64,000 nucleotides of DNA from a virus (lineage: Duplodnaviria > Heunggongvirae > Uroviricota > Caudoviricetes), in IMG/VR virus record IMGVR_UViG_2855308460_000004; one strand, written 5' to 3'. Position numbers and translations under genes: made by a program. Positions 539 to 19,108 of the stretch are shown here, in pieces. Positions within the stretch are counted from its first letter, which is position 1, and every line of letters starts with the position of its first letter. Below the pieces are notes generated by a model, which made no database searches, was not told where the DNA came from, and worked only from the letters and a program-made list of their open reading frames with translations.

Positions 539-610
539 TCCTTGGTAGCTCAATGGTAGAGCGTCCGGCTGTTAACCGGGATGTTGCAGGTTCGAGTCCT
601 GTCCTTGGAG
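539..610 (+). tRNA. tRNA-Asn (GTT); acceptor stem has two U·U mismatches (pairs 4–69 and 5–68)
   Basis: Cloverleaf read manually: D-stem gctc/gagc, anticodon loop ctGTTaa, T-arm gcagg-ttcgagt-cctgt. Confidence 0.55.
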
Positions 611-615
611 CTTAT

Positions 616-689
616 GGCTTAGTAGCTTAGAGGCTTAAAGCGCTGCCCTGTCACGGCAGAGATCGTGGGTTCGAATCCCATCTAAGTCG
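616..689 (+). tRNA. tRNA-Asp (GTC)
   Basis: Acceptor ggcttag/ctaagtc, anticodon loop ctGTCac, T-loop ttcgaat. Confidence 0.75.
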
Positions 690-710
690 TTTGTTTCAAA
701 TAATTGTTAC

Positions 711-784
711 TGGTTGATAGCTCAGTTGGTTAGAGCAACCGCCTGTTAAGCGGTGGGTCGTGGGTTCAAGTCCCACTCTTCCAG
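711..784 (+). tRNA. tRNA-Asn (GTT), second copy; same U·U mismatches at acceptor positions 4 and 5
   Basis: Anticodon arm accgc-ctGTTaa-gcggt, T-arm gtggg-ttcaagt-cccac. Confidence 0.55.
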
Positions 785-788
785 CTAT

Positions 789-860
789 ATCTCCATAGTT
801 CAATGGAAGAGCATTACGTTGACATCGTAAAGGTTGTTGGTTCGACTCCAACTGGAGATA
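789..860 (+). tRNA. tRNA-Val (GAC)
   Basis: Perfect acceptor atctcca/tggagat, anticodon loop ttGACat. Confidence 0.8.
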
Positions 861-864
861 TTTT

Positions 865-941
865 GGGATGATAGCTTACTTGCGGTCCGCAGCACTGGTC
901 TGAAAAACCAGAGGGTGATGGTTCGACTCCATCTCATCTCA
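865..941 (+). tRNA. tRNA-Phe (GAA) with an enlarged 12-nt D-loop (77 nt)
   Basis: Anticodon arm ctggt-ctGAAaa-accag, T-arm gatgg-ttcgact-ccatc. Confidence 0.55.
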
Positions 942-945
942 TTTT

Positions 946-1018
946 GGCTTATTAGATTAATTGGTTAAATCACATGCCTGTCACGCATGAGACATGGGTT
1001 CGAATCCCATATAGGTCG
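946..1018 (+). tRNA. tRNA-Asp (GTC), second copy
   Basis: Anticodon arm catgc-ctGTCac-gcatg, T-loop ttcgaat. Confidence 0.75.
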
Positions 1019-1024
1019 TTTTAT

Positions 1025-1097
1025 GGATTGGTAGCTCAGTTGGTAGAGCAGAGGACTGAAAATCCTCGTGTCGCTGGTTCGATTCCAGTCTGGTCCA
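1025..1097 (+). tRNA. tRNA-Phe (GAA)
   Basis: Anticodon arm gagga-ctGAAaa-tcctc; D-arm gctc/gagc. Confidence 0.7.
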
Positions 1098-1101
1098 CTT
1101 T

Positions 1102-1173
1102 GCTGGATTAGTTCAGTGGTAGAGCACTGGTCTGATATACCAGGAGTCGTTGGTTCAAATCCAACATCCAGCA
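1102..1173 (+). tRNA. tRNA-Ile (GAT)
   Basis: Perfect acceptor gctggat/atccagc, anticodon loop ctGATat. Confidence 0.8.
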
Positions 1174-1177
1174 TTAC

Positions 1178-1249
1178 ATCCGCATAGCTCAATGGATAGA
1201 GCATCGTTCTTCTAAATCGACGACAAGAGTTCGATTCTCTTTGCGGATA
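1178..1249 (+). tRNA. tRNA-Arg (TCT)
   Basis: Perfect acceptor atccgca/tgcggat, anticodon loop ctTCTaa. Confidence 0.75.
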
Positions 1250-1254
1250 TTTTT

Positions 1255-1328
1255 CGGAGTGTGCAGCTAAATGGTAGGCAGCTTCCCTTGGAAGGAAGAA
1301 CGTGTGAGTTCGAATCTCACTGCTCCGA
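1255..1328 (+). tRNA. tRNA-Pro (TGG); D-arm pairing poor
   Basis: Anticodon arm cttcc-ctTGGaa-ggaag, T-arm gtgag-ttcgaat-ctcac. Confidence 0.6.
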
Positions 1329-1330
1329 CT

Positions 1331-1417
1331 AATCCAGTAGTATAATGGAAGTCGATTTAATATATAAGTACGCTGGCTTGTCCGTCAGTAGTGCCGGTTC
1401 GATTCCGGCCTGGATTG
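1331..1417 (+). tRNA. tRNA-like 87-nt element; no canonical anticodon arm could be folded (atypical tRNA or pseudo-tRNA)
   Basis: Perfect acceptor aatccag/ctggatt and canonical T-arm gccgg-ttcgatt-ccggc; the interior is AT-rich with no 5-bp/7-nt anticodon hairpin. Confidence 0.35.
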
Positions 1418-1421
1418 TTTT

Positions 1422-1495
1422 GGGATCATAGCTCTAAATGGGAGAGCATTTGCCTTGCAAGCAAAGGGTTGAGGGTTCAAATCCCTCTGGTTCCA
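1422..1495 (+). tRNA. tRNA-Ala (TGC)
   Basis: Anticodon arm tttgc-ctTGCaa-gcaaa, T-arm gaggg-ttcaaat-ccctc. Confidence 0.8.
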
Positions 1496-1542
1496 TTTGA
1501 TGAAGTGGGAAAAGTATTATAATTCCGATTTCTATCAATTTA

Positions 1543-1615
1543 CGGGATGTAGCCTAGTTGGTAAGGCGCGTGATTTGGGATCACGAAATCGCAGGTTCAA
1601 GTCCTGTCATTCCGA
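1543..1615 (+). tRNA. tRNA-Pro (TGG), second copy
   Basis: D-stem gcct/aggc, anticodon arm cgtga-ttTGGga-tcacg. Confidence 0.75.
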
Positions 1616-1666
1616 TTTAATTCCATATCATTACCATAGTCTCAGTGATATGGATTATATTAATAT

Positions 1667-1738
1667 GCCCGCTTAACTCAATGGGAGAGTGCTTCCCTTA
1701 CAAGGAAGATGTTACAGGTTCAAGTCCTGCAGCGGGTA
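1667..1738 (+). tRNA. tRNA-Val (TAC)
   Basis: Perfect acceptor gcccgct/agcgggt, anticodon loop ctTACaa. Confidence 0.8.
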
Positions 1739-1740
1739 TT

Positions 1741-17832: not shown

Positions 17833-17895
17833 CTCAGCTGGAAGAGCAGGTGGCTCTTAACCATCAGGTCCAGGGTTCGATGCCCTGCAGGCGCA
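17823..17895 (+). tRNA. tRNA-Lys (CTT)
   Basis: Anticodon arm ggtgg-ctCTTaa-ccatc. Confidence 0.8.
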
Positions 17896-17936
17896 TTTCT
17901 ATCCAATAGGAAAGATTCATGTGAATTATAAATTTA

Positions 17937-18010
17937 GGCGCTATAGTGGAATTGGTTATCACGCCAGACTCTCAATCTGGAGACTGCGAGTTCAAGCCTC
18001 GCTAGCGTCA
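17937..18010 (+). tRNA. tRNA-Glu (CTC)
   Basis: Anticodon arm ccaga-ctCTCaa-tctgg. Confidence 0.8.
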
Positions 18011-18013
18011 TAT

Positions 18014-18093
18014 GTCCATATGGTGGAACGGAATACACGCTCGGCTAAGAACCGGGTCCCAAGAGGATGTGGGTTCAAATCCCACTATGGACA
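18014..18093 (+). tRNA. Class II tRNA with anticodon loop ctAAGaa (Leu AAG; A34 is unusual)
   Basis: Perfect acceptor gtccata/tatggac; 12-nt variable arm; T-arm gtggg-ttcaaat-cccac. Confidence 0.5.
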
Positions 18094-18097
18094 TTAT

Positions 18098-18170
18098 AGC
18101 CCAATAGTTCAACTGGAAGAACATCAGTTTCTGAATCTGAATGTTGCAGGTTCGAATCCTGCTTGGGTTG
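18098..18170 (+). tRNA. tRNA-Gln (CTG)
   Basis: Anticodon loop ttCTGaa. Confidence 0.7.
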
Positions 18171-18193
18171 TCAAACAGAGTTTTTGATAATTT

Positions 18194-18275
18194 GCCCATA
18201 TGGCGTAATGGCAGACGCTGTGGACTTAAAATCCACTGGATTCATTCCGTGCCGGTTCGAGTCCGGCTATGGGTA
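18194..18275 (+). tRNA. tRNA-Leu (TAA), second copy
   Basis: Perfect acceptor gcccata/tatgggt; anticodon arm gtgga-ctTAAaa-tccac. Confidence 0.8.
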
Positions 18276-18283
18276 TTTATTTT

Positions 18284-18355
18284 GGCATCTTCGACAAGTT
18301 GGTAAGTCGCAGGTATTTCAAACCTGAGTCACTGGTTCGAATCCAGTAGATGTCA
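18284..18355 (+). tRNA. tRNA-Glu (TTC)-like (loop atTTCaa, A32)
   Basis: Acceptor ggcatct/agatgtc; T-arm actgg-ttcgaat-ccagt. Confidence 0.5.
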
Positions 18356-18358
18356 TCA

Positions 18359-18429
18359 GCTTTCATAGTTTAAAGGTAGAACAGCTGCCTCGTAAGCAGT
18401 CAATGACAGTTCGATTCTGTCTGGAAGCT
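18359..18429 (+). tRNA. tRNA-Thr (CGT)
   Basis: Anticodon arm gctgc-ctCGTaa-gcagt; T-arm gacag-ttcgatt-ctgtc. Confidence 0.7.
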
Positions 18430-18430
18430 T

Positions 18431-18591
18431 TCCTATAGTCGCTGTGGTACGGACACAGACGCCATCGCAGGTCATAGTGGCGGAGCAAGGACGAGTCGAA
18501 ACGATGACGGTATTAGACAGTCTAAATAGAGCAAAGGCAGATTGCTTGCGTAAAGAGGTGAGTCTTAGCGGACAATTCCTCGCTATAGGAA
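18431..18591 (+). ncRNA. ~160-nt structured element between tRNAs, closed by a 9-bp stem (tcctatagt…gctatagga); unclassified
   Basis: Long-range inverted repeat plus internal hairpins (gcaaaggcagattgcttgc, cgaaacg loop); no ORF. Confidence 0.3.
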
Positions 18592-18676
18592 TACTATATA
18601 TTTTTGACCGTTTGTGGAGCTGACTTTTTGGTATGTGAGGTTAGTGGTGACAATGAGGAGGAGGGCATTGTCATTA

Positions 18677-18757
18677 GCTCGTATGATGGAAAGGAAGACA
18701 TGGCTGACTCAAAATCAGCTGCCGATAGGCGTAAGGGTTCAAATCCCTTTATGAGCA
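18677..18757 (+). tRNA. tRNA-Leu (CAA)
   Basis: Anticodon arm gctga-ctCAAaa-tcagc; class II. Confidence 0.75.
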
Positions 18758-18763
18758 TGCAAT

Positions 18764-18843
18764 GTTCATGTGGCGGAATGGAATACGCGTGCGGCTCAGA
18801 ACCGCATGGTTATACCTTGTGGGTTCGAATCCCACCATGAACA
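18764..18843 (+). tRNA. tRNA-Leu (CAG)
   Basis: Perfect acceptor; anticodon arm tgcgg-ctCAGaa-ccgca. Confidence 0.8.
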
Positions 18844-18846
18844 TCT

Positions 18847-18918
18847 GCCTTTATAGGCTAATGGACAAACTGCCTGACTTCGAATCAGGTGTTATGAGTT
18901 CGAATCTCATTAAAGGCA
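18847..18918 (+). tRNA. tRNA-Arg (TCG)
   Basis: Anticodon arm cctga-ctTCGaa-tcagg. Confidence 0.75.
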
Positions 18919-18922
18919 CTAA

Positions 18923-18994
18923 GTTCCTGTAGGCTAATGGATAAACCATCCGGCTACGAACCGGCAATTGGGAGTTCGAATCTCTTCAGGAACA
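18923..18994 (+). tRNA. tRNA-Arg (ACG)
   Basis: Perfect acceptor gttcctg/caggaac; anticodon loop ctACGaa. Confidence 0.75.
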
Positions 18995-18998
18995 TGAA

Positions 18999-19077
18999 GC
19001 CCGCATGGTGGAATGGAAGACATGCCTGACTTAGGATCAGGTGCGAAAGCGTGAGGGTTCAAATCCCTCTGTGGGTA
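18999..19077 (+). tRNA. tRNA-Leu (TAG)
   Basis: Anticodon arm cctga-ctTAGga-tcagg; variable arm tgcgaaagcgt. Confidence 0.8.
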
Positions 19078-19085
19078 TAAATAAA

Positions 19086-19108
19086 GGAGACAATTGTCTC
19101 CTTTTTTA
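19086..19108 (+). terminator. Intrinsic terminator closing tRNA array 2
   Basis: ggagacaattgtctcc + TTTTTT. Confidence 0.7.

What the first reader, a model, noticed from the sequence alone, without database searches (positions are those of the whole stretch)
539..19108. Two large tRNA arrays (about 19 + about 19 genes) with heavy Leu/Arg/Lys/Glu duplication on a gene-dense, phage-like element
Thirty-eight tRNA or tRNA-like genes lie within 19 kb. There are six Leu isoacceptors, four Arg, three Glu, three Lys, and duplicate Asn, Asp, Phe, Ile, Pro and Val. Arrays this size next to RtcB and Pnkp fit a phage strategy of replacing or repairing host tRNAs cut by anticodon nucleases, or of matching AT-rich codon usage. 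Which amino acids are covered (no Ser or Tyr found) may point to the host nuclease being evaded.
Basis: seen in the sequence. Interest (0 to 1): 0.7.

Follow-up and report, generated by a model that had tools for sequence, protein, structure and literature searches.

The report
Self-sensing tRNA arrays on giant element
Two real clusters of 19 tRNA genes each sit on a giant AT-rich mobile element of the gut bacterium Enterocloster aldenensis, and each follows a short "test" reading frame plus terminator built from the amino acids its own tRNAs serve, which suggests the clusters switch on when ribosomes run short of those tRNAs.

Summary
ARAGORN and Rfam together give 38 tRNA or tRNA-like genes, 19 at 539-2682 and 19 at 16489-19077. 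They carry 30 anticodons for 18 amino acids, with no Ser or Tyr.

The window comes from a 472-kb contig of an Enterocloster aldenensis isolate. The element has about 33% G+C, against 51-57% in chromosomal loci of related hosts. Syntenic relatives occur in Hungatella, Lacrimispora and many gut metagenomes. Whether it is a phage or a megaplasmid is unresolved: no virion genes appear in the 81 kb I could see.

The new result lies upstream of both arrays. Each has the same conserved layout: promoter-like repeat, structured 5' UTR, short ORF with a Shine-Dalgarno site, then a hairpin with a T-run ending 0-40 nt before the first tRNA.
- Leader 1 contains a run of 25 residues drawn only from the 11 amino acids served by array 1.
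- Leader 2 is 80% drawn from the 8 amino acids served by array 2.
- Both properties hold in relatives, including one whose leader is only 27% identical.

I infer ribosome-mediated attenuation: the arrays are transcribed when ribosomes stall for lack of those tRNAs. Codon-usage matching is only partial. RtcB lies 3.6 kb downstream of array 2, but the Pnkp-like gene is 44 kb away.

The parts
39..99 (+). Promoter-like repeat, copy 1 (TTAACA-16 nt-CATAAT at 55-82)
   Evidence: 61-nt direct repeat, 92% identical to 16010-16070 (family D9). Promoter-like match. The -10 block ATCATAATATATATGTAA occurs without mismatch only at 75 and 16046 in the window.
100..290 (+). Conserved structured 5' UTR domain, copy 1
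   Evidence: RNAalifold on both leaders from five elements gives 21 pairs, 8 of them with compensatory changes. The motif AGCTGTCCATAYRTG occurs only at 108 and 16078. No Rfam family matches at E<=1.
303..437 (+). Leader ORF 1, 44 aa: MLKKITVMNHINVPAVAMHNDIMDRFFGMDNLRIRLVRRKTSYM; Shine-Dalgarno AAAGGA 9 nt upstream
   Evidence: Conserved in 8 relatives. 33 of 43 residues are amino acids served by array 1, against 0.53 expected (p 0.001). 30 of 43 codons are readable by array-1 tRNAs. The run of 25 in-set residues is the longest among 301 small ORFs in the window; the next is 12.
412..427 (+). Candidate antiterminator segment 1 (contains CCGAAG)
   Evidence: Best duplex with the terminator 5' arm plus loop in every relative, dG -9 to -15 kcal/mol. 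One compensatory change in L100. The energy alone is not significant against shuffles.
477..508 (+). Terminator-like hairpin 1 (TGGAGTCGC-TTCG-GCGGCTCCA) plus T-run
   Evidence: Present in all relatives; the first tRNA starts 0-40 nt after the T-run.
539..2682 (+). tRNA array 1: 19 genes for Asn, Asp, Val, Phe, Ile, Arg(UCU, CCU), Pro, Ala, Gly, Met/CAU and His, plus one tRNA-like RNA
   Evidence: Order conserved in relatives.
865..941 (+). tRNA-Phe(GAA) with an extra hairpin in the D arm
   Evidence: Rfam 56.9 bits. Not called by ARAGORN at default settings. The same sequence is present in L091.
1330..1418 (+). tRNA-like RNA, 89 nt, long variable arm, A/U-only anticodon arm ('UAU', A at position 33)
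   Evidence: ARAGORN only. Across 5 relatives 99% of cells are paired, and 5 pairs in the acceptor and T arms show changes on both sides. The anticodon loop is not conserved in L091.
2693..2718 (+). Hairpin ACCAGTC-N7-GACTGGT followed by TTTTT, just after array 1
   Evidence: Read directly from the sequence. Not listed by the terminator scan.
16010..16070 (+). Promoter-like repeat, copy 2 (TTAACA-16 nt-CATAAT at 16026-16053)
16071..16285 (+). Conserved structured 5' UTR domain, copy 2
16298..16393 (+). Leader ORF 2, 31 aa: MRYRCQLLQVCLEQCTTLKKQEWLVLNAKIE; Shine-Dalgarno AAGGAG 9 nt upstream
   Evidence: 24 of 30 residues are amino acids served by array 2, against 0.40 expected (p 8e-6). 21 of 30 codons are readable by array-2 tRNAs. 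It has the highest array-2 fraction of 301 small ORFs (0.80; the next is 0.71). Conserved in relatives.
16399..16417 (+). Candidate antiterminator segment 2 (TCGAAGTATTATTAATCCA), 6-24 nt after the stop codon
   Evidence: Best duplex with the terminator 5' arm, dG -11 to -13 kcal/mol. z = -2.4 against shuffles. Compensatory CAAAG:CTTTG in L099. In the minimum-free-energy fold it pairs with the ribosome-binding-site/start region.
16457..16490 (+). Terminator-like hairpin 2 (ATGGGATTAC-TTCG-GTAGTCCCAT) plus T-run, ending 8 nt before the first tRNA
   Evidence: Invariant in five of the six aligned relatives and changed at two positions in L099.
16489..19077 (+). tRNA array 2: 19 genes for Leu (6), Trp, Gln (2), Glu (3), Lys (3), Cys, Thr(CGU) and Arg(UCG, ACG)
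16651..16737 (+). tRNA-Gln(UUG), 87 nt, with a long variable region
   Evidence: Rfam 55.1 bits. The long variable region is kept in all relatives with unrelated sequence in L018 and L099.
16985..17066 (+). tRNA-Lys(UUU), 82 nt, with a variable-arm hairpin, next to a canonical 74-nt Lys(UUU)
   Evidence: Rfam 67.1 bits. Variable-arm stem GGC/GCC in the window versus GGT/ACC in L091 and L092.
19083..19112 (+). Terminator-like hairpin after array 2
22710..23915 (+). RtcB RNA ligase
   Evidence: Pfam PF01139, E 4.5e-65. In the same position in relatives.
63125..64000 (+). Pnkp-like polynucleotide kinase/phosphatase, cut by the window end (the gene runs to 64324)
   Evidence: AAA_33 + Metallophos domains. 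Matches the N-terminal half of phrog_8238, E 1e-98, and the polynucleotide kinase phrog_505.

Best explanation
The two arrays are accessory tRNA operons of a giant AT-rich mobile element that lives in Lachnospiraceae; the copy here is in Enterocloster aldenensis.

Proposed layout (shown). Each operon is transcribed from a conserved promoter-like element through a leader of about 440 nt. The leader contains a structured 5' UTR, a short translated ORF and an intrinsic terminator that abuts the first tRNA.

Proposed sensing (composition shown, mechanism inferred). Each leader ORF is composed almost wholly of codons read by the tRNAs of its own array, and every amino acid of that array is represented. 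It therefore works as a multiplex test of tRNA sufficiency.
- If ribosomes translate the leader smoothly, the distal CGAAG-containing segment is covered or re-pairs with the ribosome-binding-site region. The terminator then forms and the array stays off.
- If ribosomes stall in the leader because any of those charged tRNAs is scarce, that segment pairs with the 5' arm and loop of the terminator. RNA polymerase then reads through into the tRNA genes.

Possible causes of scarcity (not distinguished here). The host tRNA pool may be a poor match to the element's codons, or tRNAs may be depleted or cleaved under stress or defence.

Processing (inferred from established tRNA biology). The precursors would be cut by host RNase P and RNase Z and given CCA by a CCA-adding enzyme; none is encoded in the window. 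RtcB nearby and a Pnkp-like enzyme further away would provide a parallel repair route for broken RNAs.

Status of each step. Shown: the genes, the layout, the composition match and their conservation. Inferred: translation of the leaders, terminator function, the antiterminator pairing, the direction of regulation and the physiological trigger.
For: 1. The arrays are real and conserved. There are 38 genes. The same order and content occur in relatives from Hungatella hathewayi, Lacrimispora amygdalina and gut metagenomes whose linked LCP protein is 55-97% identical.

2. They are on a mobile element, not the chromosome. The element loci have 33-35% G+C (38% in the most distant array-bearing relative, L100), against 51-57% for Hungatella/Enterocloster chromosomal loci and 41% for the chromosome of the same Lacrimispora isolate. 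There is no rRNA. SecY is stand-alone rather than in the ribosomal-protein operon.

3. Both arrays have the same upstream layout: a 61-nt repeat with a promoter-like site, a shared UTR fold with 8 covarying pairs, a small ORF with a Shine-Dalgarno site, and a hairpin with a T-run. The UTR motif occurs only at these two places in 64 kb.

4. Leader composition matches the array downstream and not the other one. Leader 1 is 33/43 in the array-1 set (p 1e-3); leader 2 is 24/30 in the array-2 set (p 8e-6). In all 13 leader/array pairs, no amino acid of the array is missing from its leader. Each leader ranks first of 301 small ORFs in the window for its own set.

5. Composition, not sequence, is conserved. 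The L100 leader shares 12 of 44 residues with the window's, yet has a 25-residue run from the same 11-letter alphabet. L099 has a run of 33. For the window, L094, L092, L099 and L100 runs, at most 1 in 200,000 random peptides did as well.

6. Codon level. The Gly codon in leader 1 is GGC, which is read by the only Gly tRNA (GCC), although GGA is the element's main Gly codon.

7. In most relatives the first tRNA begins 0-13 nt after the T-run. That leaves no room for a separate promoter, so transcription must pass through the hairpin.

8. Candidate antiterminator. The best pairing partner of the terminator 5' arm is the CGAAG segment in every relative. It is 100% paired in 10 sequences. G-C to A-U double changes occur in two separate cases, one in a leader 1 and one in a leader 2; in leader 2 of L099 the changed terminator base lies in the hairpin loop. 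12 of 500 shuffles reach this.

9. Precedent for the logic. The 26-gene trn operon on an Anabaena megaplasmid is silent until translational stress, and its regulon includes rtcB and rimK (PMC10272220).
Against: Everything about regulation is in silico; there are no transcript or ribosome data.
- The antiterminator duplex energies are not clearly better than shuffled controls (p 0.08 and 0.025). Between 5% and 15% of natural 110-nt windows do as well.
- Covariation for that pairing rests on one base pair in two sequences.
- In leader 1 the CGAAG segment lies 17-24 nt upstream of the stop codon. A ribosome parked at the stop would not obviously cover it, so the exact switch geometry is unclear.
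- The two Thr codons of leader 2 (ACT) are not read by the array's Thr(CGU) tRNA.
- Some relatives have lost an array gene while the leader still holds that amino acid, for example Ala in L100.
- About 210 nt are inserted between terminator 2 and the first tRNA in several relatives, and this insert could carry its own promoter.
- The function of the conserved 5' UTR domain is unknown. It could mean a different mechanism, for example processive antitermination.
- Only 81 kb of a contig of at least 472 kb was visible.
Confidence: 0.55

Rival explanations
1. Constitutive codon supply. The arrays simply raise the concentration of tRNAs needed by an AT-rich element in a GC-richer host. The small ORF and hairpin upstream are an unrelated small gene with its own leaky terminator.
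For: The element over-uses A/T-ending codons 3- to 10-fold relative to host loci. Several of these are served, some by two genes: TTA, AAA, GAA, CCA, AAT and CTA. Duplicated species correspond to the most used amino acids: Ile, Lys, Leu, Glu, Asp and Asn.
Against: Enrichment of served codons is not significant (p 0.30, 0.15 and 0.03). Strongly over-used TCA, ACA, TAT, AGT and GGA have no tRNA, whereas host-abundant CTG, CAG, GAG and ACG do. This reading does not explain why each leader is built from the amino acids of its own array, in two independent leaders and in diverged relatives. It also does not explain why the first tRNA abuts the T-run.
Confidence: 0.2
2. Dedicated anti-defence set. 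The tRNAs are nuclease-resistant replacements for host tRNAs cleaved by anticodon nucleases, and RtcB and Pnkp repair the cut ones.
For: RtcB is 3.6 kb downstream, in a conserved position. A kinase/phosphatase of the Pnkp type is on the element. Lys(UUU) and Glu(UUC) each have two divergent copies, and Gln(UUG) has two in L018. One Lys and one Gln copy have an unusual long variable region. That these three species are classical targets of anticodon nucleases is from my own knowledge of PrrC, PARIS and zymocin, not from a tool result.
Against: The anticodon loops of both Lys(UUU) copies are the canonical CUUUUAA. No host nuclease was identified. The set covers 18 amino acids rather than a few targets. 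Pnkp is 44 kb away. This rival overlaps with the best explanation, because tRNA cleavage could be the trigger that the leaders sense.
Confidence: 0.15
3. Ordinary housekeeping tRNA clusters of a low-GC Firmicute chromosome, of the kind found downstream of rRNA operons.
For: Large same-strand tRNA clusters are normal in Bacillota (my own knowledge). Cellular-type genes (SecY, ClpP, HPF, LCP) lie between the arrays.
Against: There is no rRNA in the window or its flanks. G+C is about 20 points below host chromosomal loci. There is no Ser or Tyr tRNA and only one CAU tRNA, and none with three G-C pairs at the base of the anticodon stem, the feature I associate with initiator tRNAs (my reading of the sequences). 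Several structures are aberrant. SecY is not in the ribosomal-protein operon as the housekeeping copy is. Homing endonucleases and TnpB are inserted in or beside the arrays. The chromosomal LCP loci of 70 Lachnospiraceae genomes carry no such arrays.
Confidence: 0.02

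Closest known systems
Anabaena sp. PCC 7120 trn operon: 26 tRNA genes on the delta megaplasmid, induced by translational stress and repressed by TrcR (PMC10272220 and the work it cites)
   Same: A large accessory tRNA operon on a giant extrachromosomal replicon, additional to the host's housekeeping tRNAs. Its expression is tied to translational stress. It is functionally linked with rtcB and an ATP-grasp enzyme: rimK in Anabaena, and an R2K ATP-grasp gene next to RtcB here.
   Different: In Anabaena, control is by a protein repressor that binds the -10 box. 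Here the sequence points to a cis-acting leader ORF plus terminator. The host phylum is different. Here there are two operons that divide the amino acids between them. Induction has not been shown here.
Ribosome-mediated transcription attenuators of amino-acid biosynthetic operons (trp, his, leu, thr, ilv and pheA leaders)
   Same: A short ORF with a Shine-Dalgarno site, enriched in 'regulatory' codons. An intrinsic terminator lies between the ORF and the regulated genes. A segment can pair alternatively with the terminator or with an upstream region.
   Different: The regulated genes are tRNAs, not enzymes. The leader polls 8 or 11 different amino acids rather than one to three. The shortage sensed could be relieved directly by the product. 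The alternative structures are only weakly supported so far.
tRNA clusters of large phages (T4, T5, KVP40, cluster C mycobacteriophages, 'huge phages' with up to 67 tRNAs)
   Same: Many same-strand tRNA genes without an encoded CCA, interrupted by homing endonuclease genes, on an element that also encodes RNA repair enzymes. The statements about the phages come from my own knowledge.
   Different: No virion gene has been seen. The element is carried stably in cultured isolates of three genera. No relative is present among 50,697 phage records. I know of no phage cluster with a leader-ORF device, and the literature searches found none.
tRNA arrays of Bacillota and of mycobacterial plasmids and phages, described in comparative surveys (my own knowledge; the surveys were not read here)
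   Same: Dense arrays of about 20 or more tRNA genes associated with mobile DNA.
   Different: Here each array has 19 genes, the two arrays share no anticodon, and each carries a matched leader.
Hodor conjugative megaplasmids of the human gut (PMC12934698)
   Same: Elements of more than 200 kb in gut Bacillota that virus-detection pipelines classify as viral. They encode their own SecY and SecE.
   Different: Hodors have 45-47% G+C, sortases and giant surface proteins, and the paper's main text never mentions tRNA. This element has 33% G+C. I saw no sortase, Rep_3 or type IV secretion gene in the 81 kb available. Membership is not supported.

Membership tests
Accessory tRNA array on a mobile genetic element | Many tRNA genes at high density on one strand | tested here: met
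   19 genes in 2.1 kb and 19 genes in 2.6 kb, all on the + strand.
Accessory tRNA array on a mobile genetic element | Located on a mobile or extrachromosomal element rather than in the core chromosome | tested here: met
   G+C is 33% against 41-57% for host loci. Syntenic copies occur in three genera and in metagenomes. TnpB, HNH and GIY-YIG insertions are present. There is no rRNA. Whether the element is free or integrated was not determined.
Accessory tRNA array on a mobile genetic element | The genes are expressed and the tRNAs are aminoacylated | not testable with these tools
   Only indirect support: conservation and compensatory changes in stems.
Phage-encoded tRNA cluster | The element encodes virion and packaging genes (capsid, portal, terminase, tail) | tested here: inconclusive
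   None among about 60 ORFs of the window and flanks by Pfam and PHROGs. However, only 81 kb of at least 472 kb was readable. A 97% identical contig is listed in IMG/VR.
Phage-encoded tRNA cluster | Similarity to known phage genomes | tested here: not met
   Against 50,697 phage records, only 50-68-nt tRNA matches were found. The 780-aa protein has no match.
Ribosome-mediated (leader-peptide) transcription attenuator | Short ORF with a ribosome-binding site in the leader | tested here: met
   ORFs at 303-437 and 16298-16393 have AAAGGA or AAGGAG 9 nt upstream of the ATG. Gene callers in independent assemblies also call them.
Ribosome-mediated (leader-peptide) transcription attenuator | Leader enriched in codons whose decoding reports on the regulated function | tested here: met
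   See the evidence for the best explanation.
Ribosome-mediated (leader-peptide) transcription attenuator | Intrinsic terminator between the leader ORF and the regulated genes | tested here: met
   Hairpins of 9-10 bp (dG -13 to -15 kcal/mol) followed by T-runs. Conserved in all relatives.
Ribosome-mediated (leader-peptide) transcription attenuator | A mutually exclusive antiterminator whose formation depends on ribosome position | tested here: inconclusive
   A candidate exists in every relative, with one covarying pair in two separate cases. The energy is not clearly above shuffled controls, and the geometry in leader 1 is unclear.
Ribosome-mediated (leader-peptide) transcription attenuator | Readthrough increases when cognate charged tRNA is scarce | not testable with these tools
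   Needs an experiment.
T-box riboswitch | Match to the T-box leader model (Stem I specifier loop, T-box antiterminator bulge) | tested here: not met
   No Rfam family other than tRNA, and a few weak hits overlapping the tRNA genes, reaches E<=1 anywhere in 1-20000. Both leaders lie in that range.
RtcB / Pnkp RNA repair pair | RtcB ligase domain present | tested here: met
   PF01139, E 4.5e-65, covering residues 40-396. It scores below NCBIfam equivalog cut-offs, so it is a divergent member.
RtcB / Pnkp RNA repair pair | Polynucleotide kinase and phosphatase domains present and adjacent to the ligase | tested here: not met
   The domains are present (AAA_33 + Metallophos), but the gene is 39 kb from RtcB and 44 kb from array 2.
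Hodor megaplasmids | G+C of 45-47%, sortases, Rep_3, type IV secretion system and giant surface proteins (PMC12934698) | tested here: not met
   G+C is 33%. None of these genes is in the 81 kb seen. Only SecY and a SecE-like gene are shared.

The most novel reading that the evidence does not exclude
Each tRNA operon is governed by a multiplex tRNA-demand sensor. The sensor is a leader peptide that polls every tRNA species of its own array and, through ribosome stalling and attenuation, switches the array on only when one of them is limiting. To my knowledge, and by the literature searches, this would be the first case of leader-peptide attenuation controlling tRNA genes. It would also be the first direct sequence-level clue to when mobile elements deploy their tRNA arrays.
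Probability: 0.5. Interest if true: 0.85.

Novelty: new variant of a known kind. Interest (0 to 1): 0.75.

Why it matters
Why phages and other mobile elements carry tRNA genes is a long-running question. The proposals are codon matching, compensation for host shut-off, and escape from tRNA-cleaving defences.

Here the element itself seems to state the condition for use. The leaders are written in the alphabet of their own arrays, which implies that the tRNAs are made when ribosomes stall for want of them. That turns the question into simple experiments: reporter fusions, recoded leaders, tRNA depletion.

If confirmed, it would extend classical attenuation from amino-acid biosynthesis to tRNA supply. 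It would also offer a compact natural sensor of tRNA sufficiency that could be re-coded at will.

The host strains are cultured human gut isolates, so the system is experimentally accessible. The element itself also deserves description. It is probably larger than 470 kb, common in gut metagenomes, and carries SecY/SecE, ClpP, HPF, NAD synthesis and RNA repair genes.

Tried and rejected
- Known relatives. Megablast and tblastn against phage records and PLSDB plasmids gave only short tRNA matches or nothing. The 'plasmid' SecY hit in Agathobacter is a chromosomal ribosomal-protein operon, useful only as a contrast.
- T-box or another known RNA family in the leaders: no Rfam hit.
- The deaminase at 13698-14111 as a TadA that would edit the A34 of tRNA-Arg(ACG) and tRNA-Leu(AAG). 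NCBIfam gives only a weak ComEB-like (dCMP deaminase) match, so I dropped the idea.
- Long spacers inside the arrays (1740-1971, 2048-2345, 18431-18676) as structured RNAs: fold z-scores are +0.4, -1.4 and -0.3, so there is no signal.
- Codon-usage compensation as a sufficient explanation: the enrichment is not significant.
- Thermodynamic test of the antiterminators: not significant on its own.
- IMG/VR scan for the UTR motif: 41 hits, all apparently chance. L176 is an unrelated tRNA-bearing contig.
- Attempts to type the element through the 780-aa, 552-aa and ParA-like proteins: no PDB, PHROG or plasmid matches of use.
- More distant backbone relatives (L217, L218, L102; LCP 57-62% identical) have no arrays in the stretches recovered, so they could not extend the leader test.
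- Hodor membership: not supported.
- The 135-aa ORF inside array 2 (17425-17832) has no family match. It is unrelated to the 139-aa ORF at the end of the array in L092.

Full report
OBSERVATION

ARAGORN finds 37 tRNA genes in the window, all on the + strand. Eighteen lie at 539-2682 and nineteen at 16489-19077, and there are none elsewhere. The Rfam tRNA model independently finds 35 at its gathering score (52-71 bits). One of these, 865-941, was missed by ARAGORN. I read it as tRNA-Phe(GAA) with an extra small hairpin in the D arm. With permissive filters Rfam also recovers Cys 17072-17143 (40.6 bits) and Pro 1263-1324 (29.0 bits, exactly at threshold). Only 1330-1418 rests on ARAGORN alone.

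There are 30 different anticodons for 18 amino acids. Ser and Tyr are absent. The two arrays share no anticodon and only one amino acid, Arg.
- Array 1 serves Asn, Asp, Val, Phe, Ile, Arg, Pro, Ala, Gly, Met (CAU) and His.
- Array 2 serves Leu, Trp, Gln, Glu, Lys, Cys, Thr and Arg.

No gene encodes CCA. Many neighbouring genes are 0-5 nt apart. Same-anticodon copies are only 61-79% identical, so they are old, not recent duplications. There is no rRNA gene in the window or in 17 kb of flanks.

WHERE IT COMES FROM

Exact-protein look-ups place the window at positions 276,603-340,602 of contig QSGP01000005.1. This contig is 472,371 bp and belongs to assembly GCA_003467385.1. NCBI and a published paper name that assembly Enterocloster aldenensis.

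The window has 30-41% G+C, about 33% overall. Chromosomal loci carrying the nearest cellular homologues of its LCP gene have much higher G+C:
- 56-57% in Enterocloster lavalensis and E. asparagiformis;
- 51% in Hungatella hathewayi;
- 41% in Lacrimispora amygdalina.

Relatives with the same gene order occur in several sources:
- a Hungatella hathewayi assembly (396-kb contig; LCP 81% identical);
- Lacrimispora amygdalina src4 (151-kb contig; 68%), whose own chromosome locus is at 41% G+C;
- many human-gut metagenome contigs of 200-450 kb.

The shared order is NAPRTase, NadE, YdjM, choline-binding protein, array 1, TelA, LCP, EAL, SecY, SecE-like, ClpP, HPF, deaminase, array 2, DNA methylase, His-phosphatase, R2K ATP-grasp, RtcB.

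A 233-kb IMG/VR contig is 97% identical over the distal part of the window. By my arithmetic from the coordinates, if it is colinear it extends about 70 kb beyond the NCBI contig end. That would imply an element well above 470 kb.

PHAGE OR PLASMID?

This is unresolved. Nothing similar exists among 50,697 phage records or 72,556 plasmid records. The 81 kb I could read contains no recognisable virion gene.

Phage-like content includes HNH/NUMOD4 and, in relatives, GIY-YIG homing endonucleases. It also includes RtcB, Pnkp, NAD salvage genes, a dCMP-deaminase-like gene, a DNA methylase, a sigma factor and RecD2. Plasmid-like content includes a ParA-like ATPase, an SLT hydrolase, a type IA topoisomerase with the Toprim_Crpt repeat, PcfJ and Uma2.

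A recent preprint shows that gut megaplasmids with their own SecY/SecE are routinely mis-called viral (PMC12934698). This element is not one of those 'Hodors', which have 45-47% G+C and no tRNA mentioned in the main text. The caution still applies. I therefore call it a giant AT-rich mobile element.

CONSERVATION OF THE ARRAYS AND THE ODD MEMBERS

Gene order and content are almost identical in relatives down to 76% LCP identity. They are recognisably the same at 55-68% (L018, L099, L100). None of these relatives has a Ser or Tyr gene; the 'Ser-aga' call in L091 is a decayed Ile(GAU) copy. More distant backbone relatives (L217, L218, L102) have no arrays in the stretches recovered.

Three members are unusual and conserved.
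- Gln(UUG), 86-88 nt (83 nt in L099). It has a long variable region whose sequence is unrelated in L018 and L099.
- Lys(UUU), 82-84 nt. Its variable-arm hairpin shows a compensatory GGC/GCC to GGU/ACC change. It sits beside a canonical Lys(UUU).
- An 89-nt tRNA-like RNA at 1330-1418. Its acceptor and T arms show five pairs with changes on both sides and 99% pairing. Its anticodon arm is an A/U hairpin with A at position 33, and its loop is not conserved in L091.

I could not determine their acceptor identity.

CODON USAGE

The element strongly over-uses A/T-ending codons relative to host loci: ATA about 10-fold, CTA 8.6-fold, TCA 6.8-fold, TTA 5-fold, ACA 4.9-fold and CCA 4.8-fold. Some of these are served, several by two genes.

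Codons with a Watson-Crick cognate tRNA are not significantly more enriched than the rest (p 0.30, 0.15 and 0.03 for the three host samples). By simple wobble rules the arrays can read 78% of the element's codons and 76% of host codons.

The arrays therefore look like a general, nearly complete set rather than a targeted codon patch. Two caveats apply. The host samples are 6,000-11,000 codons from related species, not from E. aldenensis itself. Other tRNA loci may also exist on the unseen part of the element.

THE NEW FEATURE: MATCHED LEADERS

Both arrays are preceded by the same layout.
1. A 61-nt repeat, 92% identical, at 39-99 and 16010-16070. It holds a promoter-like TTAACA-16-CATAAT.
2. 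A 5' UTR of about 200 nt that folds alike in both leaders and in five elements: 21 pairs, 8 of them with compensatory changes. Its signature AGCTGTCCATAYRTG occurs nowhere else in the 64 kb, and no Rfam family matches it.
3. A short ORF with a good Shine-Dalgarno site 9 nt upstream: 303-437 (44 aa) and 16298-16393 (31 aa).
4. A 9-10-bp G+C-rich hairpin with a UUCG loop followed by a T-run, at 477-508 and 16457-16490.

The first tRNA starts 40 nt (array 1) or 8 nt (array 2) after the hairpin stem ends. In most relatives it starts 0-13 nt after the T-run. This leaves no room for a separate promoter.

The leader peptides are written in the alphabet of their own arrays.
- Leader 1 contains VMNHINVPAVAMHNDIMDRFFGMDN. 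These are 25 consecutive residues from the 11 amino acids of array 1, and all 11 are present. Within it, the 23 codons of the core MNHINVPAVAMHNDIMDRFFGMD are all readable by array-1 tRNAs. They include GGC for the sole Gly tRNA (GCC), although GGA is the element's preferred Gly codon.
- Leader 2 contains RCQLLQVCLEQCTTLKKQEWL. Twenty of its 21 residues come from the 8 amino acids of array 2, and all 8 are present, including three Cys and one Trp.

The statistics are as follows.
- Leader 1 is 33/43 in its set, against 0.53 expected (p 1e-3).
- Leader 2 is 24/30 in its set, against 0.40 expected (p 8e-6).
- The reciprocal fractions are low, 0.30 and 0.23.
- Among all 301 small ATG ORFs (25-60 aa, six frames) in the window, leader 1 has by far the longest array-1 run (25; the next is 12). 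Leader 2 has the highest array-2 fraction (0.80; the next is 0.71).

The property survives sequence divergence. The L100 leader shares only 12 of 44 residues with the window's but has a 25-residue run from the same alphabet. L099 has a run of 33, L018 26 and L092 24. In all 13 leader/array pairs examined, no amino acid of the array is missing from its leader.

Selection on composition rather than on sequence is what a codon-polling leader predicts. It is not what a functional micro-protein predicts.

MECHANISM

The layout is that of a ribosome-mediated attenuator. In minimum-free-energy folds the ribosome-binding-site/start region pairs with the distal leader, and the terminator forms.

In every relative, the best partner of the terminator's 5' arm plus loop is a conserved CGAAG-containing segment. 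It lies at 412-427, inside the last codons of ORF 1, and at 16399-16417, 6-24 nt after the stop of ORF 2. Its duplex energy is -9 to -15 kcal/mol, against -10.6 to -15.5 for the terminator hairpins.

The core CGAAG:CUUCG pairing is intact in 10 of 10 sequences. Twice, in separate cases (leader 1 of L100 and leader 2 of L099), a C-to-U change on the terminator side is matched by a G-to-A change upstream. In L099 the changed base lies in the hairpin loop, where the terminator itself imposes no pairing constraint. Twelve of 500 shuffles reach this level. One G was added to the L100 row after the loop to keep register; it touches no counted pair.

I therefore propose the following switch. With smooth translation the ribosome reaches the end of the ORF, the segment is masked or re-pairs with the start region, and transcription terminates. 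With a stall in the leader core the segment is free to pair with the nascent terminator arm, and RNA polymerase reads into the array.

This part is inference. The duplex energies are only marginally better than shuffled controls (p 0.08 and 0.025). The covariation rests on one pair. The geometry in leader 1 is not obvious. The role of the conserved UTR domain is unknown.

RNA REPAIR CONTEXT

RtcB (22710-23915; Pfam E 4.5e-65) keeps its place 3-4 kb downstream of array 2 in relatives. It follows a histidine-phosphatase-family gene and an R2K ATP-grasp gene.

The Pnkp-like gene (kinase plus metallophosphatase, matching the N-terminal half of a phage 'RNA ligase' family at E 1e-98) starts at 63125 and is cut by the window end. 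These genes fit a theme of keeping translation running, as does the long-form HPF between the arrays. Their link to the arrays is by neighbourhood only.

COMPARISON WITH WHAT IS KNOWN

The closest functional analogue is the Anabaena trn operon. It has 26 tRNA genes on a megaplasmid, is silent until translational stress, and is controlled by the repressor TrcR. The TrcR regulon also includes rtcB and the ATP-grasp gene rimK (PMC10272220).

The closest mechanistic analogue is classical leader-peptide attenuation. Four full-text searches found no report of leader-peptide attenuation upstream of tRNA genes or of this element. The library does not cover all journals.

I classify the arrays themselves as a new member of a known kind. 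With the leaders, the system is a new variant of a known kind.

VERDICT

The matched leaders are the most interesting thing here, and they make the purpose of such arrays directly testable.
- Confidence that the arrays are genuine genes borne on a mobile element: above 0.95.
- Confidence that the leaders are selected to match their arrays: about 0.85.
- Confidence that they act by stalling-dependent attenuation switching the arrays on: about 0.55.

Noticed in passing
window 10792-12256, 12282-12878 (-), 13102-13620; also 6489-9872: A conserved island of cellular-type genes lies between the two arrays. It holds a stand-alone SecY that passes the TIGR00967 cut-off, followed by a 49-aa SecE-like ORF. 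It also holds a bona fide ClpP, a long-form ribosome hibernation factor (HPF), TelA, an LCP (LytR-CpsA-Psr) protein and an EAL phosphodiesterase. The housekeeping SecY of a related Lachnospiraceae genome is only 39% identical and sits in the ribosomal-protein operon.
   Followed up: partly
window 100-290 and 16071-16285: The structured 5' UTR domain of about 200 nt shared by both leaders has 8 covarying pairs and no Rfam match. Its role is unknown; it could be a ligand or protein sensor, a processive antitermination element, or a stable small RNA.
   Followed up: partly
window 1330-1418: A tRNA-like RNA with a long variable arm and well-conserved, covarying acceptor and T arms. Its A/U anticodon arm lacks U33, and the loop differs in L091. 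It may not decode at all.
   Followed up: partly
window 3189-4370: An IS605-family TnpB gene (OrfB_IS605 plus Cas12f1-like TNB domain) lies immediately after array 1. It is absent at this spot in L091, L092, L093 and L174, although the sequenced source contig (L002, L003) naturally has it. L005 has a TnpB at another position.
   Followed up: no
L093 4831-5556; the same in L095, L096, L174, L175: A GIY-YIG endonuclease gene is inserted inside array 1 between tRNA-Ala and tRNA-Pro, giving an 840-nt gap where the window has 46 nt. The window itself has an HNH/NUMOD4 endonuclease at 26326-26853.
   Followed up: no
L099 19124-19203: A Leu-like class II tRNA with anticodon UUA, which would read the UAA stop codon. 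It lies in array 2 of a relative with 68% LCP identity. Its T arm is poorly paired, so it may be a pseudogene.
   Followed up: no
L018 about 9170-9285: The tRNA-Ala homologue of the Lacrimispora element appears to carry an insertion of about 45-50 nt at the anticodon loop. The neighbouring tRNA-like gene is reduced to its 3' half.
   Followed up: no
L091 8030-8449: A 139-aa ORF with an alanyl-tRNA-synthetase-family domain (PF01411) sits inside array 1 of the Hungatella element.
   Followed up: no
window 1740-1971, 2048-2345, 18431-18676: Long, comparatively G+C-rich spacers inside the arrays. Their lengths are conserved among close relatives, but they show no thermodynamic fold signal and no Rfam match. 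They remain unexplained.
   Followed up: partly
L093, L095, L096, L097, L005: between terminator 2 and the first tRNA-Leu: An insertion of about 210 nt is present in several relatives and absent in the window, L091, L092 and L018. Its nature is unknown, and it could carry a promoter.
   Followed up: no
L009 (ERZ27242461 k141_77536, a 562-kb contig): Outside the element's own family, the nearest RtcB relatives (about 63% identical) lie on metagenome contigs that include ones of 526-628 kb. The one I inspected (L009) has 30% G+C, is densely packed with small same-strand ORFs, and encodes Tpt1 (a 2'-phosphotransferase), a Pycsar-like effector with cyclase, and McrBC. It looks like a different giant element or megaphage.
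   Followed up: no
L003 1-2982 (7-4 kb upstream of the window) and window 21208-22681: NAD synthesis genes (NAPRTase, glutamine-dependent NadE) lie just upstream of array 1. A histidine-phosphatase-family gene and an R2K ATP-grasp gene lie just upstream of RtcB. The latter recalls rimK in the Anabaena translational-stress regulon.
   Followed up: no
window 18013-18094: tRNA-Leu with anticodon AAG. As far as I know, an A at position 34 is unusual in bacteria outside tRNA-Arg(ACG). No TadA-like deaminase was identified: the nearby 137-aa deaminase looks like a dCMP deaminase.
   Followed up: partly
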